From assembly GCA_038205015.1 (NCBI GenBank), contig JBBRCK010000005.1:1656-65655 (forward strand): a DNA stretch of 64,000 bases, written 5' to 3'. The notes beneath the pieces were generated by a model. That model saw only the letters and a list, made by a program, of their open reading frames with translations. It did no database searches and was not told where the DNA came from. This DNA comes from Candidatus Levyibacteriota bacterium. Lineage in GTDB: Bacteria; Patescibacteriota; Microgenomatia; Levybacterales; UBA12049. The number at the start of each line of letters is the position of its first letter. The stretch's first letter is position 1. A program made the translations under genes and the position numbers. This document shows positions 2,148-64,000 of the stretch, one piece after another.

Positions 2148-2151
2148 CTAC

Positions 2152-2742: not shown

Positions 2743-2782
2743 AATAAAAAGTTCTTGTCAATAGGCATTTTGAAGCTAGTTT

Positions 2783-5054: not shown

Positions 5055-5059
5055 ATTCT

Positions 5060-13824: not shown

Positions 13825-13916
13825 TGAGCCCCGATAAGATTTTAATCACAATTATAGGAATAGCTTCAATAATTTTTACTTACTGGTATTTTTTGGCAAA
13901 AAAACAAGATGAATAA
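13824..13916 (+). CDS. small single-TM ORF (~30 aa) between csoR and copA
   Basis: [30 protein letters not shown]; the start overlaps the csoR stop (TAATG) and the stop overlaps the copA start (gATGAATAA). Coordinates approximate, +/-1. Confidence 0.3.
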
Positions 13917-16128: not shown

Positions 16129-16129
16129 T

Positions 16130-26507: not shown

Positions 26508-26644
26508 AAAAAGTGTTCCCGTTAAGTAATTTGAAGATGAAAACCCCAAAAGAGGAAATAATCTGTATTTATTATAGGGTATGGTATTAGCCTCTGTCAA
26601 CCCCTTATTTGACAACTTATATAAATAAATATAAGATAATTCAA

Positions 26645-27259
26645 ATGAAATATATCTTACCGGCCATATCAGTAATAATTTTAGCCATAATTGTTGGAAT
26701 AGGAGCATTTTATCTTGGACAAAAAACCCTAAATAATAGTCAAGCGGCGACAATACTAACAATCACGGAAAAAGTAAATAATCAAGTAACTCCTAAGCTT
26801 ACCCCAACACCCAACCAAAACCGAGTAATTCAAGCAGGTGGAGCAATAATTTTTTCAAAATATAGCCTTAAACTACCAGAGGGATGGACATCAGAAAGAG
26901 AACAGGGAAAAGATATTGACAAATTAACGCTTACAAAGCTCGGTTATAAGCTGGTGATATACGAAGCAGCTTTTGGTGGCAGTGGATGTCTTTATCCAGA
27001 CGATGCACCTTCGGAAATGGCTCAAAAATTTGTATCTTTTGTAGAAATTTTAAATCCAAACGGATTTGTGTTCAGAAGGGGACAAAGTGATAGTCTTCCT
27101 AATACCTATACTATTTGCCAAAAAAATACAGCTGATAGCTCTTTTGGCTCTCCAACTAATTTCGGAGCAATAAGCCTGACAACTCCAGGAACTCCTGATA
27201 AAAATGCTGTTGTTTTCCCCGAAACAGATGCAATTATTGCGTCTTTAAACAAAGAGTAA
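26645..27259 (+). CDS. membrane-anchored hypothetical protein
   Basis: Internal Met MKYILPAISVIILAIIVGIGAFYLG, a signal-anchor; extracytoplasmic ~180-aa domain, no known motif. Confidence 0.45.
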   Translation: MKYILPAISVIILAIIVGIGAFYLGQKTLNNSQAATILTITEKVNNQVTPKLTPTPNQNRVIQAGGAIIFSKYSLKLPEGWTSEREQGKDIDKLTLTKLGYKLVIYEAAFGGSGCLYPDDAPSEMAQKFVSFVEILNPNGFVFRRGQSDSLPNTYTICQKNTADSSFGSPTNFGAISLTTPGTPDKNAVVFPETDAIIASLNKE

Positions 27260-27260
27260 T

Positions 27261-28259
27261 CTACTTATTTCCACTATGAAAAGCCCTATGGGCATCACGA
27301 AGCTGAGGATCTGTAACGTGAGTATAAATTTGGGTTGTCGCAATATTTTTATGTCCAAGCATTATTTGAACAGACCGAATATCCGCTCCATTTGATAAAA
27401 GATCTGTTGCAAAACTATGTCTTAAAGTATGGACAGAGGGATCTTTGGTAAGCCTAATAAGTTTAGCGTATTTTTTTACAATTCTTTCAATCGACCTTGC
27501 GGTAAGTCTCATCCTCTCTCCTTCATTATCCTCAATGACTGCCCCCGAATATCGTATAAAAAGAGGCTTAAATTTATCCTTTCTTTCTTTTAAATATCTC
27601 TCTATCCAATCGGCAGCTCTGTCCGACACGAAAACCAACCTATGCTTTCTTCCTTTGCCAATAACGCCGAATTCGCGCCTTTCTAAATTAATCTGCTCTT
27701 TGTTTAAGCTGACAAGTTCGGATACACGAAGCCCTGTTGAAAAAAGAAGCTCTAGAATTGCCCTATCACGTATACCATCTTCTTTGGAGGTATCACAGGC
27801 TGTCACAAGCCTATCTACCTCATCTTTCTCCAGAAACTTAACTTCTTTTATCTCAGCTCTGGGAAGGTCAATTTTTGATGGCTCTAAGGTTTTAAAGTCA
27901 TTCTTTATTAAGAAACGAAGAAAACTTCTTAGGGCTATTACATAATAGTTTTGAGTAACTCTTTGAAGAGCAATTTCGCCTTTTATATCTAACTTATTTG
28001 CCAAAAAAACTCTATATTTTCTAATTGTTGGAAGATCTAAGTCCTCTACTGTTTTATCAGGTAGGGAAGTGAAATACCAGTCGCTAAAGACTTTTAGATA
28101 ATGCCTATAATCACGAAGTGTAAGTTTTGAACAATTTTTTTCAATTTCTAAATATTCTAAGAATTGATCAATTAAACCGGGTAATTCGTTGTTCATATTC
28201 TGCGACATGACTAATTTATTATGCGACATAAAAGAATCATTTGTCAAATTTGACCTCAT
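27261..28259 (-). CDS. xerC: tyrosine site-specific recombinase (XerC/XerD-like, phage-integrase family)
   Basis: N-terminal core-binding FLEYLEIEKNCSKLTLRDYRHYL; catalytic R..HxxR..Y block HTLRHSFATDLLSNGADIRSVQIMLGHKNIATTQIYTHV. The probable start is an internal Met (MSQNMNNELPG..). Confidence 0.8.
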   Translation of the reverse strand: MRSNLTNDSFMSHNKLVMSQNMNNELPGLIDQFLEYLEIEKNCSKLTLRDYRHYLKVFSDWYFTSLPDKTVEDLDLPTIRKYRVFLANKLDIKGEIALQRVTQNYYVIALRSFLRFLIKNDFKTLEPSKIDLPRAEIKEVKFLEKDEVDRLVTACDTSKEDGIRDRAILELLFSTGLRVSELVSLNKEQINLERREFGVIGKGRKHRLVFVSDRAADWIERYLKERKDKFKPLFIRYSGAVIEDNEGERMRLTARSIERIVKKYAKLIRLTKDPSVHTLRHSFATDLLSNGADIRSVQIMLGHKNIATTQIYTHVTDPQLRDAHRAFHSGNK

Positions 28260-28290: not shown

Positions 28291-28863
28291 ATGGATGAAA
28301 GAGGTAAAAATCCACCATCTGAAGTTATTTATAATCCGCTTCAGGAGAGGCAGAAAAAAATAACCGAGTTTAGACAAAATTTCGGATTATTTTTAGACGA
28401 AAAGAGTTCAAATATAACTCTTGTAAACATTCCCTTTGTGAAAGATATACAAAAACTGATTGTTGCTAATTTTATTAACGGCGTTCCTGCGCCTTTTGAA
28501 TATAACGGTCTGGATAAAGAGCTATTGGAAGTTATCGAAAGATATAAAAAAAGTTATACTCCGGCCACCTTATTAATTGATACTTTTAAATTAGAGGAAT
28601 TTATAGATATGCCCGAAAGCTTAAGACCGTTTGTTGGAAGCGAAATTAAAGCTGTTTCAGAAATTCACGAATTAGTTTCAATGCCAAAACAAGGAGCAAG
28701 CGTCTCAGAAGTAAGGTATTTCTCCTCTGAGTACGAAGACTTACCAATTCATGAATTATGGCAGGCGCAAAGATATAACTTAGATTACGATACTCCCCAG
28801 GATCATTCAAAAACAGGCTTCGGACTACTTATTCCAACACCACAAATTATAAAAGTTAGCTAA
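28291..28863 (+). CDS. hypothetical protein (190 aa)
   Basis: Preceded by an extended -10 TGcTATAAT ~11 nt from the ATG; no recognisable domain. Confidence 0.45.
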   Translation: MDERGKNPPSEVIYNPLQERQKKITEFRQNFGLFLDEKSSNITLVNIPFVKDIQKLIVANFINGVPAPFEYNGLDKELLEVIERYKKSYTPATLLIDTFKLEEFIDMPESLRPFVGSEIKAVSEIHELVSMPKQGASVSEVRYFSSEYEDLPIHELWQAQRYNLDYDTPQDHSKTGFGLLIPTPQIIKVS

Positions 28864-28933
28864 AAACCCCAATAGATAAATTCTAAAACTAATAAAATTG
28901 ACAAGTTAATATTTTTAATGATAATCTAAATCT

Positions 28934-29584
28934 ATGTCCGATCGTAATAATGAACGAGCTCATGTTGAGCACGCGTTTCACGTTGGAGAAAGACGGGAAG
29001 AGCGCAAAAAACTCACTCGAAGAATTAGAAATACCGTAGCCGCAGTTGGAGTAGCAGCAGCATTAAGTCAAACCCCAATTCCGGGGGCCGCGGCTGATTA
29101 TTTAAGTAATATCGGCGTAGACCAAAATAGACCGACTGCAACCGAAGCCAATATGGGAGGAACAACCACCATTACGCTAGATGAAGTTCACTTAGAAAAC
29201 GGTCATACTGTTATCTGGCCTATTTTAAGAAAGAATCCTGCAATTCATGATGGAAAAGATGGCTTAAGCCCTAATGTTGTAAATTGGACTGACGTAGAAA
29301 CCATAAATCATACTCCAATTGACGCTAAATCAGGAACCGAGATTACCATAGCAAACCCAACTTTTGTTATGGGAGAAAATACCGAAGGATCACTGTCCCA
29401 AAAGGGACTTTGGGAAGTTTTGGATATCGTAAAAAAAGATGGCACAGAAGAATTAGATTATGTCAGCGTTAGTGGTAATACCGGAGGCTTCGTAGACTTT
29501 GAACCTAAAGGAATAATGACTCCTATAAGCCAGGCAAATACAACCTTAGAAGATAAATTAGATATTACGACAGTTACACCTTAA
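28934..29584 (+). CDS. hypothetical secreted protein with RR-containing signal peptide (216 aa)
   Basis: KKLTRRIRNTVAAVGVAAALSQTPIPGAAA signal-like N-terminus; beta-rich, Thr/Asn-rich body; TTGACA-N16-GATAAT promoter 8 nt upstream of the ATG. Confidence 0.45.
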   Translation: MSDRNNERAHVEHAFHVGERREERKKLTRRIRNTVAAVGVAAALSQTPIPGAAADYLSNIGVDQNRPTATEANMGGTTTITLDEVHLENGHTVIWPILRKNPAIHDGKDGLSPNVVNWTDVETINHTPIDAKSGTEITIANPTFVMGENTEGSLSQKGLWEVLDIVKKDGTEELDYVSVSGNTGGFVDFEPKGIMTPISQANTTLEDKLDITTVTP

Positions 29585-47700: not shown

Positions 47701-48591
47701 ATGGACGATTACAGACAAACACAAATAGCCGAGCTTGATAAAAAAATTGAAGAAACAAAACTTCTTCTTGAAGACCCCCAAATGACAGAAATGGCAAAAG
47801 AGGAAATAGCTAATCTAGAAAAACAAAAAGAAGACATTCTTACGACTTTTCAAGCAAAAGAGGAAGAAACTTCCGGCGAAGATTTAGATGAAAGAAATGT
47901 AATTATTCAAATTTCCGGAGCCGCAGGCGGAGACGAGGCAACACACTGGGCTCAGGAACTTCTAAGAATGTACACCAGATTCGCAGAAAGAAAAGGGTTA
48001 AAAATTGAAAGCTTGGATGAAGATGTTATGAAAATATCAGGACACGGTGCTTTTGAAATGTTTAAATATGAAGCTGGGGTTCACAGAGTTCAAAGAATTC
48101 CAACCACCGAAAAAAGAGGAAGAGTGCATACTTCAACCGCAGCAGTTTCGGTTTTACCAGAACTTGAAGACATAGATTTACATATTAACCCAGACGATGT
48201 AAAGTTTGAAGCATTCAGAAGCGGCGGACACGGAGGGCAAAACGTTAATAAAGTTTCAACTGCCGTAAGATTAGTCCACGTTCCGTCGGGAATTGTTGTA
48301 ACTTGCCAGACTCAAAGATTTCAAGCACAAAATCGGGAAATAGCACTGGAAATGCTTAGAGCAAAACTTTGGGAAATAGAAGTTGAAAAACAACACGGAG
48401 AAATCGCAGGACTTAAAGCAACACAGGTAGGAAGAGGCATGCGCTCTGAAAAAATCAGAACCTACAATTTTCCTCAAGATAGACTTACAGATCATAGAAT
48501 AAATAAGAACTGGAGTAATTTAGAAGTCATTCTAGAAGGAAATATGGATAAAGTAATTGAAGATATGAAAATCCTGGAAAACGAAGTCTAA
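47701..48591 (+). CDS. prfA: class I peptide chain release factor (RF1-like; short N-terminus)
   Basis: GGQ motif ([13 protein letters not shown]), codon-recognition region [15 protein letters not shown] (PxT-type, RF1-like), GGDEA.. block; 296 aa, shorter than canonical RF1/RF2. Confidence 0.7.
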
Positions 48592-50276
48592 ATGTATTTA
48601 TTGTCTTTTTCCCTGAGATCCTCAATCTTATCAATATGATTTTCTAAAATAATCTTAGCAATCTGTCTTCCACCAGCTAGATGAGGCAATATTACATAAT
48701 CTGCTCCCTCTTTATACAAAATTTTTGCATCCCGAGAATCAAGTGCCATCATTACTACTTTTGCACGTCTATTTTCGTGTTTTAGTTCTTTCAACAAGAG
48801 AACATTATCATCCGTGTCGGGAATTGTTGAAATTACCAGTTTTGCATTATCTATTTGTACCCTTTGCTGAATATCTAAATCAGATATATCACCAAAAACC
48901 CGATGAACATTCTTCTTTTCAAATTTCTTAACAACACTTGGATCAAAGTCAACAACTATCACTTCCATATCTCTGTCTTCTAACGCTTCAATAATACTCT
49001 CTCCCATTTGATCTCCACCTATTACAACTACGTGTCCTTTTATATTTTCTAAGTTTTCATCAATTTCAAATATCTCATCTTTTTTAAGATTTGCTCTTTC
49101 CATAAAATCTATTTTTCCCGCAAAAATTCTATAAAGGCTTTTCCAATGAGAAATCATGTAGGTTGAAGTAGCAAAAGTGATAAGACCAACCATCGTAATA
49201 AGTGAAACCGTATTTTGATTAATATGACCAAGCTTAAGACCCAAAAACACCAAAATTAGAGAAAATTCCGATACTTGAGAAAGAGAAACTCCGGTTAAAA
49301 AAGCCGTTCTTTTTCTATAACCTAAGATACTAAAAATAAGCATAACCAAAAATGGTTTTACTAATAAAACGAATATTGACAAAAAAATTGCAGGAATTAT
49401 AATCTGAGAAATATTGGCAAAAGACATCTGAATTCCTAAAAGAACAAAAAATATTACTATAAAAAAGTCTCTTAATATTTTAGCTTTGGCAATTATCTGA
49501 TAATTTACTAAAGAGTTAGCTAGGGCAACCCCTGCTAAAAACCCTCCGATTTCAATTGAAAATCCAACAAATTTAGAGCTAACAACCGCAGCCAAACCAA
49601 AAACCCAAGCTAAGCTTACTAGAAATAATGTTTCAGGAGATTTTGCGATAAATTCAAAAACCTTAGGGAAAATATTCTTGCTTAAATATGCAATTGCACC
49701 AAAGAGAACTGCGGCCTTTACAAAAATTAGACCAAGCGGCAAAATATCTATTCCACCACCCTTTTGTGTGTCAAATCCAGAAAGAAAAATAAGAAAAATG
49801 ATTGCAAAAATATCTTGAAACAAAAGAATTCCCAAAGAAAATTTTGCATGTAAACTGTGCAACTCTCTTTGATCTGACAAAAGTTTTACTACGACTATCG
49901 TTGATGAAAATGTGAGCGCAGTTGCAACATAAAAGGAGGTAATCGTGTCAAATTTAAAAAAGGAGGAAATTAAAAATCCCAAGATAAATGTTCCAAATAT
50001 CTGAGTTAAAGATGACAGAATTAATGCTTTACCCAAAGACATTAATTCCGAAACTCTTATTTCAAGCCCTATCATAAACAAAAGGAGTGTTACTCCAACT
50101 TGAGACATGGTTTGTAACACATCTTTACTTGAGGCTGTAAAAAAGTGGAATGAAGCAATTAATATTCCCGTAAGAATATATGCTAAAATCTCAGGCTGTC
50201 TGAAGAATCTGAAAACTAAAGAAAAAAATGCCGCTATGCAAATAATAACTGTTAGGTCTAAAAATATATTAGCCAT
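48588..50276 (-). CDS. CPA2-family cation:proton antiporter with C-terminal RCK/TrkA-N domain (Kef-type)
   Basis: 12 TM Na+/H+-exchanger-like core, then Rossmann [32 protein letters not shown]. Confidence 0.8.
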
Positions 50277-56916: not shown

Positions 56917-57615
56917 CTAGATATCCCCCTTAAGGTATTTTTGGCGTAATTCTTCCGGAAATTTTTCTATTGAATATCTAAGTGCAGTTCTACCCATTTT
57001 TTTATAATGTTTTTGTAAAAAATTCTTCTCCTGCCTTAAATCTCTTTTGCCAATTTCTCTTAACATCCAGCCGACTGCTTTTTGTATTAAATCTTCTTTG
57101 TCTTCAATTAACATTTCCGCAATTTTTAATGATGTTTCAAAATTTTTATCTCTTATGAATTCAAAAGTGGAAATTATTGATATTCTTTTTTCCCAAAGAT
57201 TACTACTCTTGGCCAATTTTAATAGAACATCTTTAGGTTTATCAATTAGATATCTACCAACGATTTCGTGCGAAGATAAATCAACTAAATCCCAATTATT
57301 TATATACTTGGTATTCTTTAAATAAAATTCATAAATTTTCTTTCTGTCTTGAAGATTTTTTTTGAAGTTATGAACCAGTATTAAAAGCGCGATTAATCTT
57401 TCTTCATGGATTTTAGACTTTAATAACTCCTGAATTTCTTTAAATTGAAGATTTTTATATTTTATTGCGATTTCTCGAGACTGAGGAACAGTTAATCCTG
57501 CAAATATATCCCCTTCTCCGTATTCTCCTTTTCTTGTTTTAAAAAACCCTTGCAAAAGTACGGCTTTCTTTTTATTCGATAATTTTTCAACTTCTTTTTT
57601 TAAATCTTTAAGCAT
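56917..57615 (-). CDS. DNA alkylation repair enzyme (AlkD/AlkC-like HEAT-repeat glycosylase)
   Basis: ..NNWDLVDLSSHEIVGRYL.., characteristic of the AlkD family; all-helical 232 aa. Confidence 0.65.
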   Translation of the reverse strand: MLKDLKKEVEKLSNKKKAVLLQGFFKTRKGEYGEGDIFAGLTVPQSREIAIKYKNLQFKEIQELLKSKIHEERLIALLILVHNFKKNLQDRKKIYEFYLKNTKYINNWDLVDLSSHEIVGRYLIDKPKDVLLKLAKSSNLWEKRISIISTFEFIRDKNFETSLKIAEMLIEDKEDLIQKAVGWMLREIGKRDLRQEKNFLQKHYKKMGRTALRYSIEKFPEELRQKYLKGDI

Positions 57616-57748
57616 AAATGTGATTTAAATTTACTACCACATTTATTTCTTGTCAACTTATTTAAAATTTGGTTATATTTGTAATTCAAATCACATCCAT
57701 TAATTGTTAAAAATATTAAAGTTATTTTTAAGAAAGGAGGTAAATAAA

Positions 57749-57976
57749 ATGAAGACAATGACTTGTCGACAAATGGGTGGACCCTGCGATGCTTCAATTT
57801 CCGGTGAAAGTGCTGAAGAAATGATGACAAACGGAGCAGCTCATATTTCATCAATGGATGACGAAGGACACAAAAAGGCTGTAGAAATGATGGAAGAAAT
57901 GCAAAACAATCCAGATGCTGGAAAAGTATGGAATGAAGATTTTGCTAAAAAATTTGCAGAACTTCCGGAAGCCTAA
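57749..57976 (+). CDS. DUF1059 small metal-binding protein
   Basis: MKTMTCRQMGGPCDASISGESAEEMMTNGAAHISSM...; strong SD AAGGAGG 8 nt upstream. Confidence 0.55.
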   Translation: MKTMTCRQMGGPCDASISGESAEEMMTNGAAHISSMDDEGHKKAVEMMEEMQNNPDAGKVWNEDFAKKFAELPEA

Positions 57977-57977
57977 A

Positions 57978-58148
57978 TTATTTTTTTCGGGTTAACAAAA
58001 ATATATTCAACAGTAATACTGTCATTAAACCGATGTAAGAAAATATTTGAACATTTGTTCCTTTAAAATTCTCATCAATTCCGTTATATGTCAACCACAA
58101 GATAAAGACAACATTTCCTAGTATTGCAATTACTTTAAGATTCTTCAT
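57978..58148 (-). CDS. small two-TM membrane ORF (56 aa) downstream of the CDF transporter gene
   Basis: MKNLKVIAILGNVVFILWLTYNGIDENFKGTNVQIFSYIGLMTVLLLNIFLLTRKK; weak RBS; missed by the track (<60 aa). Confidence 0.25.
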   Translation of the reverse strand: MKNLKVIAILGNVVFILWLTYNGIDENFKGTNVQIFSYIGLMTVLLLNIFLLTRKK

Positions 58149-58158
58149 AAATTACAAA

Positions 58159-59097
58159 CTATCTTCTTGGTGTATCTAGCTCTACCTGAACGTATTTTGC
58201 CGATGGAACTTCCAATTGAATCCTGTCTTTAATTTCATCTGTTAGTTTTTCTAATTCTCTTGTTCCAAGTCTTGATTTCATGTGCACAAACATATTTACT
58301 AAAAGTTTTTCAGATCCCAAGTGCAATGTTTTTATTTCCAAAACTTCGTCTACCTCCTCTATCTCCAAAGCGGCATTCTTTATTCTTTGCTCAGTTTCCA
58401 CCGAAGCGCTTTTACCAATTAAAAGTTCTCTTATTCCAAGTACTAAAAAAATTGCAAATATTGCCAACACAATTCCAATAACCATTGCTCCTAAACCGTC
58501 AAATCGTTGGTCTCCAGTAAAAGCATAAATTCCAAGAGCAATAGCCCCCAAAAGCGATGCGCAAGTTCCCATTAAATCTAAAATAAAAGTAGTTTTAGTT
58601 TCGACTAAAGAAGATCGGAAAAAAATTTTAAATATTAGTTTTGCCGGTCTTCTTCTTAAAAGACGCATAAAACTTAATGTAAAACCATATCCGTTAGTAA
58701 AAAAAGTCAAAATTAAAATAAATATAGCCAAATTAATATCTCTTATCGGCTCAGGGTGAAAAAACCTTTGCCAACCAAAATAAAATGATAAAGTAGATGT
58801 TAATCCAAACATTACTAACGCCGATAAAAGACTCCAAAAATAAATTTCGGTTCCGTAACCGAATGGATGAATTTTATCTTCTTTTTGATTTGAACGGAAA
58901 AATCCTATTAACAAAAATCCCGAGGATGCTAAATCGGATATCCCTTCTAAAAATTGGGTAAACATTATTATGCTCCCGGAAAGAATTGCAACTGAAAAAT
59001 TTAATACTACATCCAGAACATCTACTAAAAATGACGTAATAATTACTCTTTTTGAAGATATTCTTTGCTCTTTTAAAACTTCTGAAGATTTATCCAT
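58159..59097 (-). CDS. cation diffusion facilitator family metal efflux transporter
   Basis: 6 TM with conserved TM2/TM5 acidic/His sites and a C-terminal cytoplasmic CTD (..LHLGSEKLLVNMFVHM..). Confidence 0.75.
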   Translation of the reverse strand: MDKSSEVLKEQRISSKRVIITSFLVDVLDVVLNFSVAILSGSIIMFTQFLEGISDLASSGFLLIGFFRSNQKEDKIHPFGYGTEIYFWSLLSALVMFGLTSTLSFYFGWQRFFHPEPIRDINLAIFILILTFFTNGYGFTLSFMRLLRRRPAKLIFKIFFRSSLVETKTTFILDLMGTCASLLGAIALGIYAFTGDQRFDGLGAMVIGIVLAIFAIFLVLGIRELLIGKSASVETEQRIKNAALEIEEVDEVLEIKTLHLGSEKLLVNMFVHMKSRLGTRELEKLTDEIKDRIQLEVPSAKYVQVELDTPRR

Positions 59098-59123
59098 TAA
59101 TTTATTATAGCAATAATTTGTTA

Positions 59124-59660
59124 TTAATTTTTAGCTTGCACTAGCGCATCTGTTAAAGATGCAATAAATGCCGGAGACGTAGCTGAAGCGCCCGAAACTC
59201 CACTTACGTTTGCACTCTGTGCTTGTATTGCTTCCTGTTTTAATAAAGGTATTGCCTGAGAATTTATACTACGTGAAGTTCCATTATCATTTGGATATTG
59301 CAGAAAAATCACATCTGTAATTTTTCCACCGTTTATAATTGCTTGCACCTGAATATTTCCATAATATGCATCTTGAACACTTCCCGTAAAGCTTCCATTT
59401 TTATACATTCCCGCGGACACTGGCGTGGTTGTTGGAAGTAGTGGTGGATTTGTTAAAGCAATTGTTGGAAGGGGTTTATTTATATTTTGAACGGGCTTTG
59501 TGGCTTCCGACGGTGTTGGCGTTTCGGTTAAAAAGGGAGTTGGACTTAATTGATTCGGCTTAATACTTACAACAATATCATCACCTAATTTTGCGTTCCT
59601 AAGCCAAACTAAAAAAAATAAAACAGACAAAACCGTGGTAATTTGAAAATATTTTCTCAT
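59124..59660 (-). CDS. extracytoplasmic FMN-binding domain protein (FMN_bind; putative ApbE substrate)
   Basis: Signal anchor; ..YKNGSFTGSVQDAYYGNIQVQAIINGGKITDVIF.. and a candidate flavinylation site ..NVSGVSGASATSPAFI.. ([S/T]GA[S/T]-like). Confidence 0.6.
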   Translation of the reverse strand: MRKYFQITTVLSVLFFLVWLRNAKLGDDIVVSIKPNQLSPTPFLTETPTPSEATKPVQNINKPLPTIALTNPPLLPTTTPVSAGMYKNGSFTGSVQDAYYGNIQVQAIINGGKITDVIFLQYPNDNGTSRSINSQAIPLLKQEAIQAQSANVSGVSGASATSPAFIASLTDALVQAKN

Positions 59661-59716
59661 TATAATACTTAATTATTGTACATAATTTTCTTGAAATTTT
59701 CCTGAAATGATTATAA

Positions 59717-60364
59717 TTACTCTCGGGGACTTTCTTCCGTATGATTCTGATTAAAATTTGAGCTATCTTCTTTTTCCACTTCTTTTCGTCTGTCCTCTGT
59801 TTGTCTTAAAATATGCTCTATTTCTAATTTACTACCATCAGACGCTACTCTACTTGCATCCCGAAGATTATCTCCACTCTCTTTAATTATTTTATTGTTA
59901 ACAACTTTATTGTCACTTAATTCATTCTCATAATCTTTTATAGCATTTATTAAATTAGTTGAATTTTTCTTATTCCTTGGATCTGACAGTAATTTTACCT
60001 CCTGACTTCTCCTTTTTAATATTTCTCCCTTAAATGACGGGCTTACTTTCCTAGCAATATCTTCTGATATTCTTTTTACAGGATATAACGGTTGTCCGGG
60101 AAGACTATCCTGTGCACTAACAAGTGTTGAAAAACTTATAAAAAATAATATTACCAAGACGTAGGCAAAAAGTTGTCTATGAAGAGAAAAAAAGTTTTTT
60201 GAAGTATTTTTTTGTCTTAAAAATTTAGTCTTTATTTCAAAGGACCTTTCTATTTTTATTGAGTTTGAAAAATTCTTTGATAAAAGTGCCAGCTCTTCCG
60301 CTTCTTTATCTGTTGCACCCTCTTGTTTTAATTCTAGAATTAATTTATCTAAATCGTTACTCAT
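59717..60364 (-). CDS. membrane-anchored anti-sigma-factor-like protein (DUF5667-like extracytoplasmic domain)
   Basis: Cytoplasmic N-terminus, one TM (LFAYVLVILFFISFSTLV), extracytoplasmic ..PGQPLYPVKR..; ATGA overlap with the upstream ECF sigma gene. Confidence 0.5.
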   Translation of the reverse strand: MSNDLDKLILELKQEGATDKEAEELALLSKNFSNSIKIERSFEIKTKFLRQKNTSKNFFSLHRQLFAYVLVILFFISFSTLVSAQDSLPGQPLYPVKRISEDIARKVSPSFKGEILKRRSQEVKLLSDPRNKKNSTNLINAIKDYENELSDNKVVNNKIIKESGDNLRDASRVASDGSKLEIEHILRQTEDRRKEVEKEDSSNFNQNHTEESPRE

Positions 60365-60864
60365 TTTATTAATATTTCTTTTAATTTCTTAAGTCCTCTA
60401 AATTGTAATACTCTTATATTTACTTCTGTTGTGTCTAAAATTTCGGCAGCCTCTTTTGCAGATAAATCATCTACGAATCTTAATAACACAACCTCTTTTA
60501 GATTCTCTGGTAAAAATTTAAGGGCATTGTTAATTTTTCTTAAATTTTCATCTTTATGAATTCTCTCTATTAAATCTTCATCATAAGATGGCTCAAGGCC
60601 CATTTCTACTGTTTCTTCCAAAGAAACTTTTTTACCGTTTTTATGTTTTCTATAATGGTCTATTAAAATATTTTTGGCTGTTTTATACAATAATGCTTGT
60701 ATAAAATCATGCTTTAGCTTTTTCCAATTTTTCCAAATTCTTAAAAAGGCTTCGCTCGTAATATCCTCTGAAAGATAAGGATCTGAGGTACTTAAGTATA
60801 TGTACCTGTAAATTTTGTCCGAATATTTTATGTAAATAGTTTCGAATTCTTTTGAAAATTGCAT
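60361..60864 (-). CDS. ECF-subfamily RNA polymerase sigma factor (sigma-70 regions 2 and 4)
   Basis: Region 2 (..DITSEAFLRIWKNWKKL.., ..LYKTAKNILIDHYRK..) and region 4 HTH (..VVLLRFVDDLSAKEAAEILDTTEVNIRVLQFRGLKKL..); start at the internal Met MQFSKEF... Confidence 0.8.
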   Translation of the reverse strand: MQFSKEFETIYIKYSDKIYRYIYLSTSDPYLSEDITSEAFLRIWKNWKKLKHDFIQALLYKTAKNILIDHYRKHKNGKKVSLEETVEMGLEPSYDEDLIERIHKDENLRKINNALKFLPENLKEVVLLRFVDDLSAKEAAEILDTTEVNIRVLQFRGLKKLKEILIK

Positions 60865-60928
60865 CAAACATATTTTATCACACCAATATATGTAACGAAT
60901 ATTTTTGTGTTTCGTTATAAATTTTGTT

Positions 60929-61432
60929 ATGAACAAAACAATCACCATATTATTCTTAGCATTACTACTTATACTTACGCAAAATAAGACTCTTTCACTT
61001 GCCCAAACTAAATCTACAAATATTAATAATCAAATTGCAATCAGTGATGATTCAGATAAAGTTGAGATTTCAGATGATAATCACGGCAATTTAAACAGTG
61101 CGTCAAACACTAATAAAAATGACTATGAGAATGAATCTGAGGATGATAGTATTAACGGAAGAAAAATTGTTGCCAAACCTGCTTTATCGCTACCTCTACT
61201 AAAAGTGACTCCAACTGTTACTATTACTCCAACAACTACTCCTACTACGCCAGCTCTTGGAGTTTCTGGTAACTCATCTGATAACATAGTCGTAACCCCT
61301 ACACCTACTACCCAACAGTTAAGCCTACAGGATTCTAAAACAGAAAGTCCAAGCGCAGGTTTTGATTTTATGAAAGAAATAGAAAAACTTTTAATTTCTT
61401 TAAAAAAGATCATCTTTAATACTCTAGGTTAA
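60929..61432 (+). CDS. secreted Thr/Pro-rich hypothetical protein
   Basis: Signal peptide MNKTITILFLALLLILTQNKTLSLA; acidic N-domain; TPT repeats (TITPTTTPTTP..TPTPTT); divergent from the ECF sigma operon. Confidence 0.45.
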   Translation: MNKTITILFLALLLILTQNKTLSLAQTKSTNINNQIAISDDSDKVEISDDNHGNLNSASNTNKNDYENESEDDSINGRKIVAKPALSLPLLKVTPTVTITPTTTPTTPALGVSGNSSDNIVVTPTPTTQQLSLQDSKTESPSAGFDFMKEIEKLLISLKKIIFNTLG

Positions 61433-61528
61433 ATTAATAACTTGCTGTTAATATGAATACTGTCCTTGGGGCCTTAAAAGATATAATTAGTTTTATAAAA
61501 TATTTCTACTTCGGAGAGATAATTTGAC

Positions 61529-63061
61529 TCAAACTTTCTCTACATAACCAGGGAAAAAGTCTGTAATAATTTGCCTTCTTGATATATGTAAGCTTTTTAA
61601 AGTCTTCTCAAAATTCTGAACCATTAATTGCGGTCCGGAAATATAATATGTACGGTTTTTATAATCCGGCATTTCTTCGGCAATCATTTCTTGAGTAATA
61701 TATCCAACTTTCCCTGACCAACTTTGGGGAATATTGTCTTTATCTGTTAATGTAAAAATTGTTTTTACCCCATTTGCAACTGCAGTATTCAGAGTATCTA
61801 TAAAAAGAATCTCATTTGCTGTTCTGTTTGAGTAAAACAAAACAATATTTACTGAGAGATTTTTATCGGTAATGTACTTAATCATACTTCTAAATGGCGC
61901 TATTCCAACTCCCCCTGCAACAAATACCAGAGGCTTTTTTAAATCTTTTGGCAAGGTAAAATCTCCTGCCAATTGAGATGCAATAATTTTGTTTCCCTGC
62001 ATTATACCCAACAGTTCTTTTTTATATGTACTTGATGGATCATAAAACTTAACTGTCATAAATATATCGCTCTCCGTTGGAGATGAGGCAATACTAAAAT
62101 ACCTTCTATTTCCTCTCGAATCAGTGTTTTTATGAGGAAGAGTCCATTCCATGTACTGCCCTGGGATAAACTTAAAATCAGGCGTTCTATCGAATGCAAA
62201 AGCATAAGTGTCAGGTGATAATTGTTTTTTCCATTTTAAAGATAAATCTAATCTATAATTCGAACTTATAAAATACGAAAACACATTACCTATAATTAAG
62301 GCCATTTCGGGCGTAAAACCAAAGCTAATTAACCTAAGTTGCGGCGTTGCGTATAAAATAGCAACTAAATATCCATAATATCCCTGAAGCTTATTTGTTG
62401 TGGGAGAAGTCATGGGCTCTGTTAACATTACAAAAGTAAAGAAAAATAAAGCAGAATCTAATACACTTAACTTCCAGGTCGTTAATACGGATATTAAAGA
62501 TGCAGAATGTAACAATGATCCGATTGTAAGTACTAAAAGATAAACTATTAAAAAACTAAAGACTAATTTTTCTCTTCTAATTTTTCTTACCAGCAAAAGT
62601 CCACCAATAAAAACAAATGGCAACATTATTGGCGTACCTACCCACCAGGTTGCGCTGTTATTAGTTAAAAGCGCAATAATAACAACTGCCGCGGCAGCAG
62701 GATTGAATAAATGTCTTTTCTCCACGGTTAAAAGATATTTAACACCCATCGCAAAGACAGACGCTTCAATTAAAAATTTAAGATTAGTAGGAAATGAAAG
62801 TGGAATTATTAAAGCTAAAATAAGTGCCGTAATAAAAACAGACTCTACATTAGTAATTGCATTAAATAGTTTCGCTAGTAAAAAATTTGAAGCAAAACAA
62901 ACAACTACCAAAATTAGTGAACTGATAATTATATCTAGTGGACTAAAGGGTAAAAAATGAAAAAAGCCAAAAAGAATCGATATTAAAATTAATACGATTA
63001 AATAATACAGAGTTAATCTGTACATTGTTACCTTATTTAAAAGCGAGTCGATTAATTCCAT
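61529..63061 (-). CDS. fusion protein: N-terminal RnfD/NqrB-like membrane domain plus C-terminal ferredoxin-NADP-reductase-like FAD/NAD(P)-binding oxidoreductase domain
   Basis: N-terminal ~300 aa polytopic with ..RHLFNPAAAAVVI.. (the RnfD/NqrB NPA-type motif) and ..FVMLTEPMTSPTT.. (resembles the flavinylated region of RnfD/NqrB). C-terminal domain has RRYFSIASSP (RxYS FAD site) and GGVGIAPFRSM (NAD(P) site). Confidence 0.6.
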   Translation of the reverse strand: MELIDSLLNKVTMYRLTLYYLIVLILISILFGFFHFLPFSPLDIIISSLILVVVCFASNFLLAKLFNAITNVESVFITALILALIIPLSFPTNLKFLIEASVFAMGVKYLLTVEKRHLFNPAAAAVVIIALLTNNSATWWVGTPIMLPFVFIGGLLLVRKIRREKLVFSFLIVYLLVLTIGSLLHSASLISVLTTWKLSVLDSALFFFTFVMLTEPMTSPTTNKLQGYYGYLVAILYATPQLRLISFGFTPEMALIIGNVFSYFISSNYRLDLSLKWKKQLSPDTYAFAFDRTPDFKFIPGQYMEWTLPHKNTDSRGNRRYFSIASSPTESDIFMTVKFYDPSSTYKKELLGIMQGNKIIASQLAGDFTLPKDLKKPLVFVAGGVGIAPFRSMIKYITDKNLSVNIVLFYSNRTANEILFIDTLNTAVANGVKTIFTLTDKDNIPQSWSGKVGYITQEMIAEEMPDYKNRTYYISGPQLMVQNFEKTLKSLHISRRQIITDFFPGYVEKV

Positions 63062-63063
63062 AT

Positions 63064-63801
63064 TTAATTAGTGTACCTACTAAAACCTTCGGTATAAACT
63101 GCCTGCTTATCCCTCCTTATAATATAACTCTCAAATCCCTTTAACGTTACTATAAAGTCTAAACCTTTTTCTCCCATCGCAAATATTGCCGTTGCGAATC
63201 TGTCTGCTTCGTAAACATTTGGACCGATTACCGTAACGCTAACAATTTCACCAACATTATCTTTATTCTTTGGATTATAAATATGCCCCCCTCTTATATA
63301 GTTTCCCGAAGTTGCAATTCCTTTATCGCTTAATTTTACAATCTTTATTATTTCTTTTATGTTAAACGGATTTTGAATCCCAATTTTCCATTCTTTTCCC
63401 TTTTCATCTTTCCCATAAACCTGTATGTCTCCGGCAATTTCAACATAGATATTTTTATATCCCTTTTTAAGTAATTTTTTCGCTCCCTCATTAATTGCGT
63501 ATCCTTTGACAACTCCCGAAGGATCTAAAATTCCTTTATTATTAATATCAAAAAATCCATTTGTTTCCTGTTTTGTTTTTTCACACAAAAAAAGAATATT
63601 CTTCATTTCCTTACTATAATCTGATTCTTTTAGCTCTCCTCTGTTAATCTGAGAAATTTCACTGTCTTTTTTGTAAGTACTAAATTTTTTGTCAATATAG
63701 TGAAAATACGAAAAAACTTCATTAATATCTTCTTCTTTTATATCTCTATCAGCAACCTGTATCGTAACAGGCATACTCATAATGATTGCGGTTTTTTTCA
63801 T
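63064..63801 (-). CDS. apbE: FAD:protein FMN transferase (ApbE family)
   Basis: ..GIATSGNYIRGGHIYNPKN.. and ..EADRFATAIFAMGEKGL.. ApbE signatures; start at the internal Met MKKTAIIMSMPVTIQV.. Confidence 0.7.
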   Translation of the reverse strand: MKKTAIIMSMPVTIQVADRDIKEEDINEVFSYFHYIDKKFSTYKKDSEISQINRGELKESDYSKEMKNILFLCEKTKQETNGFFDINNKGILDPSGVVKGYAINEGAKKLLKKGYKNIYVEIAGDIQVYGKDEKGKEWKIGIQNPFNIKEIIKIVKLSDKGIATSGNYIRGGHIYNPKNKDNVGEIVSVTVIGPNVYEADRFATAIFAMGEKGLDFIVTLKGFESYIIRRDKQAVYTEGFSRYTN

Positions 63802-63825
63802 TCGTTCTTTAAGATAAAAAAATTC

Positions 63826-64000
63826 TATTCTTCCAATTCTTTGGCGGCGTTTCGATAAGCACAATAATCACAAGCTGATAAAGAATTTGGAATTGTGCTT
63901 AAATTTAGACATTTATAAGCATCTTCAACCGTTTTGCCAACCCAAGAATCATCTCCAATATATGGAATAATTTTTATATCAAACTCAAGTTTTGCATCAA
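63826..64000 (-). CDS. C-terminal fragment of a PP-loop ATPase-like protein (QueC-like CxxCxxRxxA zinc motif); gene continues beyond the window end
   Basis: Reverse frame reads ...IIPYIGDDSWVGKTVEDAYKCLNLSTIPNSLSACDYCAYRNAAKELEE*; only ~58 codons visible. Confidence 0.3.

What the first reader, a model, noticed from the sequence alone, without database searches (positions are those of the whole stretch)
59124..64000. Compact flavin-based transmembrane electron-transfer module (ApbE, RnfD-like::FNR fusion, extracytoplasmic FMN-binding protein) next to an ECF sigma/anti-sigma pair and a CDF metal exporter
Three components sit within 5 kb. They are an ApbE flavin transferase, a single polypeptide joining an RnfD/NqrB-type membrane domain to a cytoplasmic FNR-like NAD(P)H:FAD oxidoreductase domain, and a signal-anchored FMN_bind protein with an SGASAT-type candidate flavinylation site. 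The membrane domain carries the family's FNPA and FxMxTExxTSP hallmarks. Together they predict the chain NAD(P)H to FAD, to membrane-embedded covalent FMN, to extracytoplasmic covalent FMN, to an external acceptor. That is a minimal quinone-independent extracellular or periplasmic reductase. The window shows no cytochromes, quinone biosynthesis or Nqr/Rnf partner subunits. The downstream operon of ECF sigma, anti-sigma (DUF5667-like), FMN_bind, CDF and a small TM ORF suggests envelope or metal-stress control. The RnfD-like::FNR fusion architecture is unusual, and its link to an extracytoplasmic flavoprotein could be a new minimal electron conduit, for example for metal reduction or redox maintenance in an organism without a respiratory chain.
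Basis: partly seen in the sequence, partly recalled or inferred. Interest (0 to 1): 0.8.

Follow-up and report, generated by a model that had tools for sequence, protein, structure and literature searches.

The report
Already-described NQR/RNF-like flavin electron conduit
The flavin module is real: a flavin transferase, an RnfD-like membrane protein fused to an NAD(P)H-oxidising domain, and a tethered outside FMN protein. But it is a member of the "NQR/RNF-like" system already described by comparative genomics in 2021 and 2024, common in Patescibacteria and Chloroflexota and still untested experimentally.

Summary
The membrane domain of the 510-aa fusion has an RnfD/NqrB fold and the C-terminal half is an FNR-type dehydrogenase.

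The architecture is not new. It is the key gene of the "NQR/RNF-like" system of PMC8238504 (2021), which PMC11334425 (2024) modelled further.

Relatives occur in at least 414 species-level genomes. In 61 of 80 loci examined the genes form a tight FMN_bind-ApbE-fusion operon. The ECF sigma/anti-sigma and CDF linkage is found in only one other genome, so it is a lineage-specific rearrangement.

- The TSP threonine is not a flavinylation site, and the membrane domain has no canonical ApbE motif.
- The acceptor in the FMN_bind protein is Ser159 (SGVSGAS), not the Thr of SAT.

Most likely path: NAD(P)H, FAD, non-covalent flavin(s) in the RnfD-like domain, covalent FMN on the tethered outside protein, then an unknown acceptor.

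One puzzle remains. Every ApbE in these clusters lacks an export signal although its substrate domain faces outward.

Verdict: real, ordinary member of a known but uncharacterised family. Interest is modest.

The parts
63064..63801 (-). ApbE-type FAD:protein FMN transferase. It is a short form of 245 aa with no signal peptide, lipobox or TM segment. The ORF could extend to a TTG at 63864.
   Evidence: Pfam ApbE 4.9e-43. It aligns to solved ApbEs and keeps the ATSGNY and GGHIYNP motifs, but lacks about 46 residues of the canonical enzyme. The N-terminus MKKTAIIMSMPV begins directly in the ApbE fold, as in about 70 orthologues. The gene was called as 245 aa on the source contig.
62258..63061 (-). 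RnfD/NqrB-like membrane domain of the fusion protein (residues 1-268). It has 10 TM helices with both ends in the cytoplasm.
   Evidence: Pfam NQR2_RnfD_RnfE 1.1e-10. A family profile hits NqrB at 3e-6 and RnfD at 4.2e-6. The AF2 model has pLDDT 87 and pTM 0.86. The only significant Foldseek PDB hits are RnfD (TM-score normalised to the query, TMq, 0.69-0.75) and NqrB (TMq about 0.6). Lys+Arg count is 15 in the predicted inside loops and 1 in the outside loops (sequence, helix limits).
61529..62254 (-). FNR-type NAD(P)H:FAD dehydrogenase domain of the fusion protein (residues 270-510, stop codon included).
   Evidence: Pfam NAD_binding_1 3.3e-16. PDB sequence hits include cytochrome b5 reductase 1.3e-10 and NqrF 9.2e-10. 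Foldseek matches two-domain FNR folds with target-normalised TM-score 0.7-0.8, including NqrF and the SpNOX dehydrogenase domain. RRYFS and GGxGxxP are invariant.
60929..61432 (+). Gene for a secreted Thr/Pro-rich protein of unknown function. It is convergent with the fusion gene and divergent from the sigma gene, so it splits the module into two transcription units.
   Evidence: ORF. It was called as a 167-aa gene on the source contig. It has no Pfam hit. A homologue sits at the same position in L076. The N-terminus MNKTITILFLALLLILTQNKTLSLAQ looks like a signal peptide (sequence).
60361..60864 (-). ECF-type sigma factor with regions 2 and 4 only. The ORF could start as far upstream as 60948.
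   Evidence: Pfam Sigma70_r2 4.9e-10 and Sigma70_r4_2 8.3e-11. It was called as 167 aa on the source contig.
59717..60364 (-). Putative single-pass anti-sigma factor. Its start overlaps the sigma stop by 4 nt.
   Evidence: Position and overlap. It has one hydrophobic segment (residues about 64-84). DUF5667 is only a weak match (E = 0.0094, below cutoff). Homologues lie next to sigma genes in L057, L076 and L079.
59124..59660 (-). Membrane-anchored FMN_bind protein. It has an N-terminal signal anchor, a Pro/Thr-rich linker of about 60 aa and an 88-aa FMN-binding domain. The flavinylation motif SGVSGAS is encoded at 59184-59204, with Ser159 as acceptor.
   Evidence: Pfam FMN_bind 3.4e-7. It hits the solved FMN-binding domain 8p2a at 1.9e-11, with S159 aligned to the flavinylated Thr. 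The motif is conserved in 75 orthologues (S70 G74 A75 [T58/S17]). It is the only motif-like site in all six frames of the window. Charge bias supports an N-in/C-out orientation.
58159..59097 (-). Cation diffusion facilitator (metal efflux), 26 nt downstream of FMN_bind.
   Evidence: Pfam Cation_efflux 3.3e-21; ZT_dimer 7.6e-6, 26.3 bits, just below its 26.7-bit cutoff. It is linked to the module in only 2 of 80 related loci.
57978..58148 (-). Small 56-aa ORF with two hydrophobic segments, 10 nt downstream of the CDF gene. It is probably the last gene of the sigma operon.
   Evidence: ORF. No Pfam hit. No homologue was found in related loci.

Best explanation
The region encodes a member of the published "NQR/RNF-like" flavin system: a two-subunit, quinone- and cytochrome-independent conduit plus its flavin transferase.

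**Proposed path**
1. The cytoplasmic FNR-type domain of the 510-aa fusion oxidises NAD(P)H on FAD.
2. Electrons cross the membrane through non-covalently bound flavin(s) in the 10-TM RnfD/NqrB-like domain. This uses, in reverse, the riboflavin (cytoplasmic side) to FMN (outer side) wire of RnfD/NqrB.
3. Electrons arrive at an FMN attached covalently by ApbE to Ser159 of the membrane-tethered, outside-facing FMN_bind protein.
4. That protein passes them to a so far unknown extracytoplasmic acceptor.

**Shown here:** domain content, folds, topology, motif conservation and operon conservation.

**Inferred:** cofactor occupancy, the direction of flow, the acceptor and any ion coupling.

In this lineage the usual FMN_bind-ApbE-fusion operon has been rearranged. 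FMN_bind is now co-transcribed with an ECF sigma/anti-sigma pair and a CDF exporter, so its expression may respond to an envelope or metal signal.
For: **Membership**
- PF03116 and PF00175 occur in one protein. This is the published key-gene definition.
- ApbE is adjacent and FMN_bind lies four genes away.

**Fold and topology**
- The membrane domain matches only RnfD and NqrB in the PDB (query-normalised TM-score, TMq, up to 0.75).
- The C-terminal half matches FNR, NqrF and NOX-type dehydrogenases.
- There are 10 TM helices with 15 Lys/Arg inside and 1 outside. This places the FNR domain in the cytoplasm.
- FMN_bind orthologues have an N-flank net charge of about +2.4 and a C-flank net charge of about 0, which places the domain outside.

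**Flavinylation**
- The motif x-x-[V/I]-S-G-A-[T/S] is nearly invariant in 75 FMN_bind orthologues.
- S159 aligns to the flavinylated Thr of 8p2a.
- ApbE is linked to the fusion gene in 69 of 80 loci. The three genes form a same-strand operon in 61 of 80.

**Mechanistic precedent**
- In RNF and NQR, electrons pass from the FMN of RnfG/NqrC to the FMN of RnfD/NqrB and then to riboflavin about 8 Å away on the cytoplasmic side (PMC12174285).

**No partner genes**
- No Rnf or Nqr partner subunit, cytochrome or quinone gene was found in the window.
- The recurrent gene families within 6 kb of the fusion gene in 80 genomes are regulators and ABC transporters only.

**Published model**
- The same model is proposed in PMC8238504 section 13 and PMC11334425 section 9.
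Against: - No member of the family has been tested experimentally. None was found in the searchable literature.
- The cluster's ApbE has no export signal in any of about 70 orthologues. Canonical ApbE must be periplasmic to act on outside substrates (PMC12052999). How Ser159 becomes flavinylated is therefore unexplained.
- The window motif has Ser instead of Asp at position 1 and a Ser acceptor. Both are reported to lower flavinylation efficiency, but not to abolish it.
- Flavin binding in the membrane domain is inferred from homology only. The canonical covalent site is missing.
- No acceptor gene is conserved next to the operon.
- Only 64 kb of the genome is visible.
Confidence: 0.7

Rival explanations
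1. Redox-driven, or gradient-driven, ion translocation. The RnfD-like domain keeps the putative cation pathway of NqrB/RnfD. Electron transfer between NAD(P)H and the outside flavin would then be coupled to Na+ or H+ movement. This would give an organism without a respiratory chain a minimal redox pump, or allow it to use a gradient made by the H+/Na+-PPase to push electrons.
For: - F207 is invariant and aligns to the NqrB gate residue F338.
- E215 is near-invariant and aligns to NqrB D346.
- NqrB/RnfD is related to the ammonium/urea channel family and is one proposed ion path (PMC12174285).
- The window also encodes a membrane pyrophosphatase and a Kef-type exchanger.
Against: - The second gate residue F342 is Val here.
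- The periplasmic loop region, including NqrB A263 whose backbone carbonyl helps coordinate Na+, is deleted.
- A competing model places ion transport in RnfA/E, which are absent here.
- Nothing in the sequence demonstrates coupling.
Confidence: 0.1
2. ApbE would flavinylate the Thr of TEPxTSP in the membrane domain as well as the Thr of SAT in FMN_bind.
For: - T218 is invariant.
- Canonical RnfD and NqrB do carry a covalent FMN.
- An A-[S/T]-W-W element in the shortened TM5-TM6 loop keeps Ser or Thr at position 138 in 89% of close homologues and 77% of distant ones.
Against: - T218 matches no position of D-x-x-[S/T]-G-A-[S/T]. By alignment with NqrB D346 it lies at the cytoplasmic end of TM8.
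- Around T138 only the Ala at position -1 fits the motif. The residue is Ile, Gly, Ala, Asn or Val in 11-23% of homologues.
- PMC11334425 reports loss of the site in this family.
- The six-frame scan found one motif only, in FMN_bind.
- The FMN_bind acceptor is Ser159, not Thr161.
Confidence: 0.04
3. A fragment or spare subunit of a canonical Rnf or Nqr complex encoded elsewhere in the genome.
For: Only 64 kb of the genome can be inspected. Public annotations name homologues 'RnfABCDGE type electron transport complex subunit D'.
Against: - The fusion to an FNR domain replaces the RnfC or quinone output.
- The canonical flavinylation loop is deleted.
- The three-gene operon is conserved in 61 of 80 genomes, and the recurrent gene families within 6 kb of the fusion gene are regulators and ABC transporters, not Rnf or Nqr genes.
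- None occurs in the window.
- The carriers are mainly Patescibacteria. That this group generally lacks Rnf and Nqr is background knowledge, not tested here.
Confidence: 0.03
4. An entirely cytoplasm-facing or flavin-handling system. Because ApbE is cytosolic, flavinylation and the FMN_bind domain would be inside. Alternatively, the RnfD-like domain, a relative of solute channels, would move flavin across the membrane and not electrons.
For: - The ApbE has no signal peptide in about 70 orthologues.
- Cytosolic ApbEs are known and serve cytosolic substrates (PMC12052999).
- The RnfD/NqrB fold is distantly similar to Rh and urea transporters (E > 0.4).
Against: - The positive-inside bias of 75 FMN_bind orthologues puts the domain outside. 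The N-flank carries up to +8 in Chloroflexota.
- The Pro/Thr-rich linker is typical of surface proteins.
- RnfG and NqrC, the homologous subunits, are outside.
- The published AlphaFold-multimer model docks the FMN_bind subunit on the outer face.
- A fused NAD(P)H dehydrogenase has no obvious role in a transporter.
Confidence: 0.08

Closest known systems
NQR/RNF-like flavinylation-associated system (PMC8238504, eLife 2021, section 13; PMC11334425, mSystems 2024, section 9)
   Same: - The key gene is the same: an N-terminal NqrB/RnfD (PF03116) membrane domain fused to a C-terminal PF00175 NAD-binding domain.
- It is associated with ApbE and with a membrane-anchored FMN_bind (NqrC/RnfG-like) protein.
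- The membrane domain has no canonical flavinylation site.
- The predicted flow is one-way, from NAD(P)H to an outside flavin.
- The taxa include the candidate phyla radiation.
   Different: - The gene order differs. Here FMN_bind is separated from ApbE-fusion by a convergent gene and lies behind an ECF sigma/anti-sigma pair and ahead of a CDF gene. This order is shared with only 1 of 80 loci.
- This survey finds the family far more widespread (at least 414 species-level genomes against 127 clusters reported).
- This survey also finds that the cluster ApbE never has an export signal. Neither paper mentions this in the passages read.
RnfD-RnfG / NqrB-NqrC half of the RNF and Na+-NQR complexes
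   Same: - The 10-TM RnfD/NqrB fold (query-normalised TM-score, TMq, up to 0.75).
- The FNPA and F-x-M-x-T-[D/E]-P motifs.
- A single-TM-anchored outside FMN-binding partner flavinylated through an S-G-A-[T/S] motif.
- In RNF and NQR this pair forms a trans-membrane flavin wire (FMN, FMN, riboflavin).
   Different: - There are no RnfA/E, RnfB, RnfC or NqrA/D/E/F partners.
- The periplasmic loop with the flavinylated Thr (NqrB T236) is deleted.
- The cytoplasmic partner is a fused FNR domain, in place of RnfC Fe-S clusters or ubiquinone.
- The proposed flow is outward only, not semicircular.
- The FMN_bind domain is a minimal 88-aa type. By sequence it is closest to domains of multi-flavinylated proteins (8p2a), not to NqrC or RnfG.
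NOX/FRE-type and MsrQ-like::PF00175 trans-membrane reductases (for example Streptococcus pneumoniae NOX)
   Same: The design logic is the same. A membrane redox domain is fused at its C-terminus to a cytoplasmic FNR-type NAD(P)H:FAD dehydrogenase that feeds electrons outward. The dehydrogenase domain is a Foldseek match (8qq1, 8qt6).
   Different: The membrane conduit here is an RnfD-like flavin-binding domain. It is not a di-haem ferric-reductase domain, and the module has no haem ligands or cytochrome.
Listeria monocytogenes flavin-based extracellular electron transfer (Ndh2, EetA/B, PplA, FmnB)
   Same: - NADH-derived electrons reach an ApbE-flavinylated surface FMN_bind protein in a monoderm.
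- The candidate role is the same: NAD+ regeneration or reduction of external iron or flavin.
   Different: - The Listeria route goes through a quinone pool and EetA/B.
- Its ApbE (FmnB) is a secreted lipoprotein supplied with FAD by an ECF exporter (PMC9973259 abstract).
- Here there is no quinone step and ApbE appears cytosolic.

Membership tests
NQR/RNF-like system (operational definition of PMC8238504) | One protein with an N-terminal PF03116 (NqrB/RnfD) domain and a C-terminal PF00175 domain | tested here: met
   PF03116 at 41.9 bits (cutoff 27.7) and PF00175 at 60.3 bits in the 510-aa protein. The definition is quoted.
NQR/RNF-like system (operational definition of PMC8238504) | Encoded within five genes of an ApbE or FMN_bind gene (a flavinylation-associated gene cluster) | tested here: met
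   ApbE ends 2 nt upstream of the fusion gene. FMN_bind is the fourth gene downstream.
NQR/RNF-like system (operational definition of PMC8238504) | [quoted passage not shown] | tested here: inconclusive
   No SignalP tool was available. FMN_bind has an N-terminal hydrophobic anchor with positive-inside bias but no good signal-peptidase site. ApbE has no signal.
NQR/RNF-like system (PMC11334425) | The membrane subunit lacks the flavinylation site conserved in NqrB/RnfD | tested here: met
   The fusion protein has no D-x-x-[S/T]-G-A-[S/T] motif. The NqrB 208-272 loop is reduced to about 10 residues. A residual A-[S/T]-WW element is S/T in only 77-89% of homologues.
Canonical RnfD / NqrB subunit | 10-TM RnfD/NqrB fold and family HMM match | tested here: met
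Canonical RnfD / NqrB subunit | Covalent FMN on a Thr in an ApbE motif in the periplasmic TM5-TM6 loop | tested here: not met
   The motif rule is from PMC12052999.
Canonical RnfD / NqrB subunit | Co-encoded with RnfA/B/C/E/G or NqrA/C/D/E/F | tested here: not met
   None was found in the window. The recurrent gene families within 6 kb of the fusion gene in 80 related genomes are regulators and ABC transporters only. The rest of this genome is not visible.
FNR-like NAD(P)H:FAD oxidoreductase (FAD_binding_6 + NAD_binding_1) | Two-domain FNR fold with an R-x-Y-S-type FAD motif and a G-x-G-x-x-P nucleotide motif | tested here: met
   NAD_binding_1 at 3.3e-16. Foldseek target-normalised TM-score is 0.7-0.8 to cytochrome b5 reductase, NqrF and flavohaemoglobin reductase domains. 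R319-R-Y-F-S323 and G383-G-x-G-x-x-P389 are invariant. Pfam FAD_binding_6 itself was not reported for this protein at E <= 0.01, although PF00970 is on record for some homologues.
ApbE FAD:protein FMN transferase | ApbE fold/HMM with the catalytic His region | tested here: met
   PF02424 at 148 bits. ATSGNY...GGHIYNP aligns to ATSGDY...SHIIDP of solved ApbEs.
ApbE FAD:protein FMN transferase | N-terminal signal peptide or lipobox giving an extracytoplasmic location (typical of ApbEs that serve outside substrates) | tested here: not met
   The protein starts in the first strand of the fold, and no hydrophobic segment occurs even in the longest ORF. The same holds in about 70 orthologues. The requirement is described in PMC12052999.
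FMN_bind (NqrC/RnfG-like) ApbE substrate | PF04205 domain with a D-x-x-[S/T]-G-A-[S/T] motif and an N-terminal membrane anchor | tested here: met
   PF04205 at 3.4e-7. The motif is S-G-V-S-G-A-S159. Position 1 is Ser, not Asp; Asp to Ala is reported to have a minor effect. S159 aligns to the flavinylated Thr. The motif is conserved in 75 orthologues. The anchor is shown.
FMN_bind (NqrC/RnfG-like) ApbE substrate | Covalent FMN actually attached | not testable with these tools
   This needs mass spectrometry or in-gel fluorescence.
ECF sigma / anti-sigma pair | Sigma with regions 2 and 4 only, followed by a co-transcribed single-pass membrane protein | tested here: met
   Sigma70_r2 and r4_2. 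There is a 4-nt overlap with the next ORF, which has one hydrophobic segment. The DUF5667 assignment of the anti-sigma is below the Pfam cutoff, so it is inconclusive.

The most novel reading that the evidence does not exclude
The two-subunit module is a minimal ion-translocating redox machine. The RnfD-like domain keeps part of the NqrB/RnfD cation pathway (F207 aligns to F338, E215 to D346). It would couple NAD(P)H-to-outside-flavin electron transfer to Na+ or H+ export. That would give Patescibacteria, which lack a respiratory chain, a way to build membrane potential.

A second unexcluded reading concerns the signal-less ApbE. It may flavinylate the FMN_bind protein in the cytosol before Sec export. 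This would remove the need for an FAD exporter. I put its probability at about 0.25.
Probability: 0.08. Interest if true: 0.8.

Novelty: new member of a known kind. Interest (0 to 1): 0.33.

Why it matters
Patescibacteria have tiny genomes without respiratory chains or quinones (background knowledge, not tested here), yet many keep this three-gene flavin module. It is one of their few candidate routes for moving reducing power across the membrane. Possible uses are NAD+ regeneration, iron reduction and surface redox repair.

The module has been known from comparative genomics since 2021, so this window adds no new kind of system. It adds three smaller points:
- The family is much more widespread than the 127 clusters first reported.
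- Its dedicated ApbE is consistently signal-less. This challenges the assumption that flavinylation of outside proteins happens outside the cell.
- In one Levybacteria-like lineage the outside subunit has come under an ECF sigma/anti-sigma pair next to a metal exporter. That arrangement could point to a physiological trigger.

Tried and rejected
**Rejected**
1. *TSP threonine as a flavinylation site.* Rejected by motif comparison and by alignment to NqrB and RnfD.
2. *A-[S/T]-WW in the TM5-TM6 loop as a vestigial covalent site.* It is Ser or Thr in 77-89% of homologues but lacks the rest of the motif. A profile alignment places it next to NqrB G273, not T236. I left this as inconclusive and unlikely.
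3. *ECF sigma, anti-sigma or CDF as part of the system.* Rejected as a general feature by the survey of 80 species-representative loci.
4. *A conserved fourth component or terminal reductase next to the operon.* Clustering of neighbouring ORFs gave only OmpR-type two-component systems (17 loci), MacB-like ABC/FtsX/HlyD sets (about 10-17 loci), ECF sigmas (11) and a small secreted protein (8). There was no redox enzyme.

**Uninformative or empty**
- The promoter and terminator scan of 57600-64000 gave counts close to those from shuffled sequence.
- The Rfam scan found no riboswitch, only one tRNA.
- The literature search found no experimental work on this family.
- The NQR/RNF-like sheet of the 2021 supplement is truncated in the held copy. 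The authors' own signal-peptide calls for these ApbEs could not be read.
- The full-length model in Foldseek returned only FNR-domain hits. The membrane domain had to be modelled separately.

Full report
**1. What is in the sequence**

The region holds a run of minus-strand genes:
- ApbE, 63064-63864. The probable start is the MKK codon at 63801, giving 245 aa, as called on the source contig.
- A 510-aa fusion protein, 61529-63061.
- A sigma factor, 60361-60864 (ORF up to 60948).
- A single-pass membrane protein whose start overlaps the sigma stop by 4 nt, 59717-60364.
- An FMN_bind protein, 59124-59660.
- A CDF transporter, 58159-59097.
- A 56-aa hydrophobic ORF, 57978-58148.

Pfam confirms the assignments: ApbE 4.9e-43; NQR2_RnfD_RnfE 1.1e-10 and NAD_binding_1 3.3e-16 in the fusion; Sigma70_r2 and r4_2; FMN_bind 3.4e-7; Cation_efflux. 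ZT_dimer scores 26.3 bits, just under its 26.7-bit cutoff.

- DUF5667 on the anti-sigma candidate is below the Pfam cutoff (E = 0.0094).
- FAD_binding_6 is not reported at E <= 0.01.

It encodes a secreted Thr/Pro-rich protein with no Pfam hit, and it was called as a gene on the source contig. It is convergent with the fusion gene and divergent from the sigma gene. The module is therefore split into two transcription units: ApbE-fusion, and sigma-antisigma-FMN_bind-CDF-small ORF. Intergenic gaps in the second unit run from -4 to 56 nt.

**2. The fusion protein**

An AlphaFold2 model built on 26 homologues is confident (pLDDT 83, pTM 0.78). The C-terminal half (residues about 270-510) is a two-domain FNR fold:
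- PDB sequence hits include cytochrome b5 reductase (1.3e-10) and NqrF (9.2e-10).
- Foldseek target-normalised TM-scores are 0.7-0.8 to b5 reductases, NqrF and flavohaemoglobin reductase modules. The dehydrogenase domain of S. pneumoniae NOX also matches.
- R319-R-Y-F-S323 and G383-G-V-G-I-A-P389 are invariant.

The membrane domain was modelled alone (pLDDT 87, pTM 0.86). In the PDB it matches only RnfD (9eri_D, 8rbq_D, 8ahx_D, 7zc6_D; query-normalised TM-score, TMq, 0.69-0.75) and NqrB (TMq about 0.6). The next hits are Rh and urea channels at E > 0.4. A profile of 26 diverse family members hits NqrB at 3e-6 and A. vinelandii RnfD at 4.2e-6.

The model has ten helices. Lys+Arg counts are 15 in the loops predicted inside and 1 in the loops predicted outside. 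The inside set includes RKIRREK at 159-165 and the stretch after TM10. The protein is therefore N-in and C-in, and the FNR domain is cytoplasmic. This agrees with the 10-TM topology of RnfD/NqrB (PMC12174285).

**3. Flavinylation sites**

ApbE recognises D-x-x-[S/T]-G-A-[S/T] and modifies the last residue. Asp to Ala has a minor effect, and a Ser acceptor works less well than Thr (PMC12052999).

A six-frame scan of the whole 64-kb window finds one motif-like site, SGVSGAS in FMN_bind.
- In 75 orthologues the motif reads [D51/N16/S6]-x-[V/I]-S70-G74-A75-[T58/S17].
- Ser159 of the window protein aligns with the flavinylated Thr of the solved FMN-binding domain 8p2a (1.9e-11).
- The acceptor is therefore Ser159, not the Thr of "SAT".

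- It matches no motif position.
- It aligns with the NqrB D346 segment at the cytoplasmic end of TM8.
- The NqrB loop that carries the flavinylated Thr236 (residues about 208-272) is reduced here to about 10 residues (N134-T143).
- A residual A-[S/T]-W-W element keeps Ser or Thr at position 138 in 89% of close homologues and 77% of distant ones. It is Ile, Gly, Ala, Asn or Val in the rest, and it lacks the other motif positions.

This agrees with the published statement that the NQR/RNF-like membrane subunit lacks the NqrB/RnfD flavinylation site (PMC11334425).

**4. It is a known family**

PMC8238504 (eLife 2021) defines an "NQR/RNF-like system". Its key gene is exactly this one: an NqrB/RnfD (PF03116) membrane domain fused to the PF00175 NAD-binding domain, inside a flavinylation gene cluster. 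The paper reports 127 clusters in 127 genomes, mainly Actinobacteria and the candidate phyla radiation. [quoted passage not shown]

PMC11334425 (mSystems 2024) adds an AlphaFold-multimer model of the Ktedonobacter pair. It proposes that the covalent FMN of the outside subunit samples a non-covalent flavin site in the membrane subunit.

I found no experimental study of the family.

**5. How common it is, and in what context**

- The window protein has an identical copy in public data. The top 120 listed homologues nearly all have the same two-domain architecture, and several are named Levybacteria or Patescibacteria.
- The membrane domain alone finds 1527 clusters at 50% identity (316 at E <= 1e-30).
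By record title, the 80 best-matching genomes span many Patescibacteria classes, Chloroflexota and one Thermoleophilia.

In 80 species-representative loci:
- 61 have the same-strand operon FMN_bind-ApbE-fusion.
- ApbE is present in 69 and FMN_bind in 71.
- An ECF-type sigma lies nearby in 11, an anti-sigma homologue in 3 and a CDF in 2.

Only L076, whose fusion protein is 65% identical, shares the window's order: fusion, Thr/Pro-rich gene, sigma, anti-sigma, FMN_bind, CDF. The nearest Levybacteria-type loci (L005, L006) have the canonical order, and L006 has a CDF 2 kb downstream.

Other recurrent neighbours are regulators and ABC transporters (details in the tried-and-rejected field). There are no cytochromes, Rnf or Nqr partner genes, or candidate terminal reductases.

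The window itself has none of these. It looks like a typical Patescibacteria segment, with type IV pilus genes, a membrane pyrophosphatase and few metabolic genes.

**6. Most likely mechanism**

In RNF and NQR, the RnfG/NqrC FMN passes electrons to the RnfD/NqrB FMN near the outer face. From there they go to a riboflavin about 8 Å away towards the cytoplasm, and then to RnfC or to ubiquinone (PMC12174285). The RnfD/RnfG pair is thus a self-contained trans-membrane flavin wire.

Here the cytoplasmic partner is a fused FNR domain. I propose this path: NAD(P)H, FAD, non-covalent flavin(s) in the RnfD-like domain, FMN on Ser159 of the tethered outside protein, then an external acceptor.

- *Shown:* folds, topology, motif conservation and gene linkage.
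- *Inferred:* flavin occupancy of the membrane domain, the direction of flow and the acceptor.

The roughly 60-residue Pro/Thr linker of the window FMN_bind protein could let the FMN domain swing away from the membrane. Linker length varies widely among orthologues, which range from 135 to 278 aa.

Candidate roles are NAD+ regeneration, ferric reduction and surface redox repair. For ferric reduction, six published clusters carry a VIT1 gene. Nothing here discriminates among them.

In this lineage FMN_bind shares an operon with an ECF sigma/anti-sigma pair and a CDF exporter. This hints at metal- or envelope-responsive expression, but only for this lineage.

**7. An unexplained feature**

Every cluster ApbE examined (about 70) begins directly with the first strand of the ApbE fold, MK.TR..MGMP. 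None has a signal peptide, lipobox or TM segment. This includes the window protein, even in its longest possible ORF. These ApbEs are also about 46 residues shorter internally than solved ApbEs.

Yet the only motif-bearing substrate has its domain outside. In 75 orthologues the N-flank net charge is about +2.4 and the C-flank about 0. Chloroflexota N-tails carry up to +8. Canonical ApbE has to be periplasmic to function, and known cytosolic ApbEs serve cytosolic substrates (PMC12052999).

Possible explanations:
- Flavinylation occurs in the cytosol before export. A seven-residue linear motif suffices for ApbE.
- A second, secreted ApbE is encoded elsewhere in the genome.
- ApbE is exported by a non-classical route.

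[quoted passage not shown] That filter may explain why it counted only 127 clusters and judged flavinylation components under-represented in the candidate phyla radiation.

**8. Verdict**

The module is a new member, with a lineage-specific gene rearrangement, of a described but experimentally uncharacterised family.

Noticed in passing
window 63064-63801, and ApbE genes of L005-L083: The ApbE of this cluster type never has a signal peptide, lipobox or TM segment (about 70 orthologues). It also lacks about 46 internal residues of solved ApbEs. Its only motif-bearing substrate is predicted to face outward.
   Followed up: partly
window 13909-17161: A copper-type P1B ATPase with an HMA domain (13909-16128) is followed directly by a DsbD_2::Cupredoxin_1 fusion protein (16130-17161). 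This could be a second, thiol-based trans-membrane reductant conduit with a cupredoxin-like outside domain.
   Followed up: no
window 60929-61432 (+): A secreted Thr/Pro-rich protein of 167 aa with no Pfam match. It lies between the fusion gene (convergent) and the sigma gene (divergent), and a homologue sits at the same place in L076. It is a possible target of the ECF sigma.
   Followed up: partly
window 18567-20606 and 48588-50276: A membrane-bound H+/Na+ pyrophosphatase (Pfam H_PPase 1.6e-257) and a Kef-type Na_H_Exchanger with a TrkA_N domain. These are the visible ion-motive devices in an organism with no respiratory genes in the window.
   Followed up: no
window 389-6799: A type IV pilus gene cluster: three N_methyl pilin-like genes, a prepilin peptidase (A24), a T2SSF platform protein and two T2SSE ATPases. 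I recall such clusters as typical of Patescibacteria.
   Followed up: no
L006 5173-6245, L043 5247-6995, L055 5946-6952: Some relatives carry two FMN_bind genes in the operon. They are either in tandem or flank ApbE, which suggests duplication of the outside subunit.
   Followed up: no
L011, L026, L028, L045, L063, L068, L070, L071 (flanks of the operon): A MacB-like ABC ATPase, an FtsX-type permease, an HlyD-like adaptor and a small secreted protein recur next to the three-gene operon in about 10 genomes. OmpR-type two-component systems recur in 17.
   Followed up: partly
record titles (for example L009, L014, L063, L068, L071): Several contigs that carry typical Patescibacteria-type operons are titled 'uncultured Gammaproteobacteria bacterium'. 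This is probably an automatic mislabel of the MAGs.
   Followed up: no
window 27261-28259: A tyrosine recombinase (Phage_integrase with an N-terminal SAM-like domain), flanked by several ORFs without Pfam matches (25659-27259, 28291-29584). It could be XerC/D or a small mobile element.
   Followed up: no
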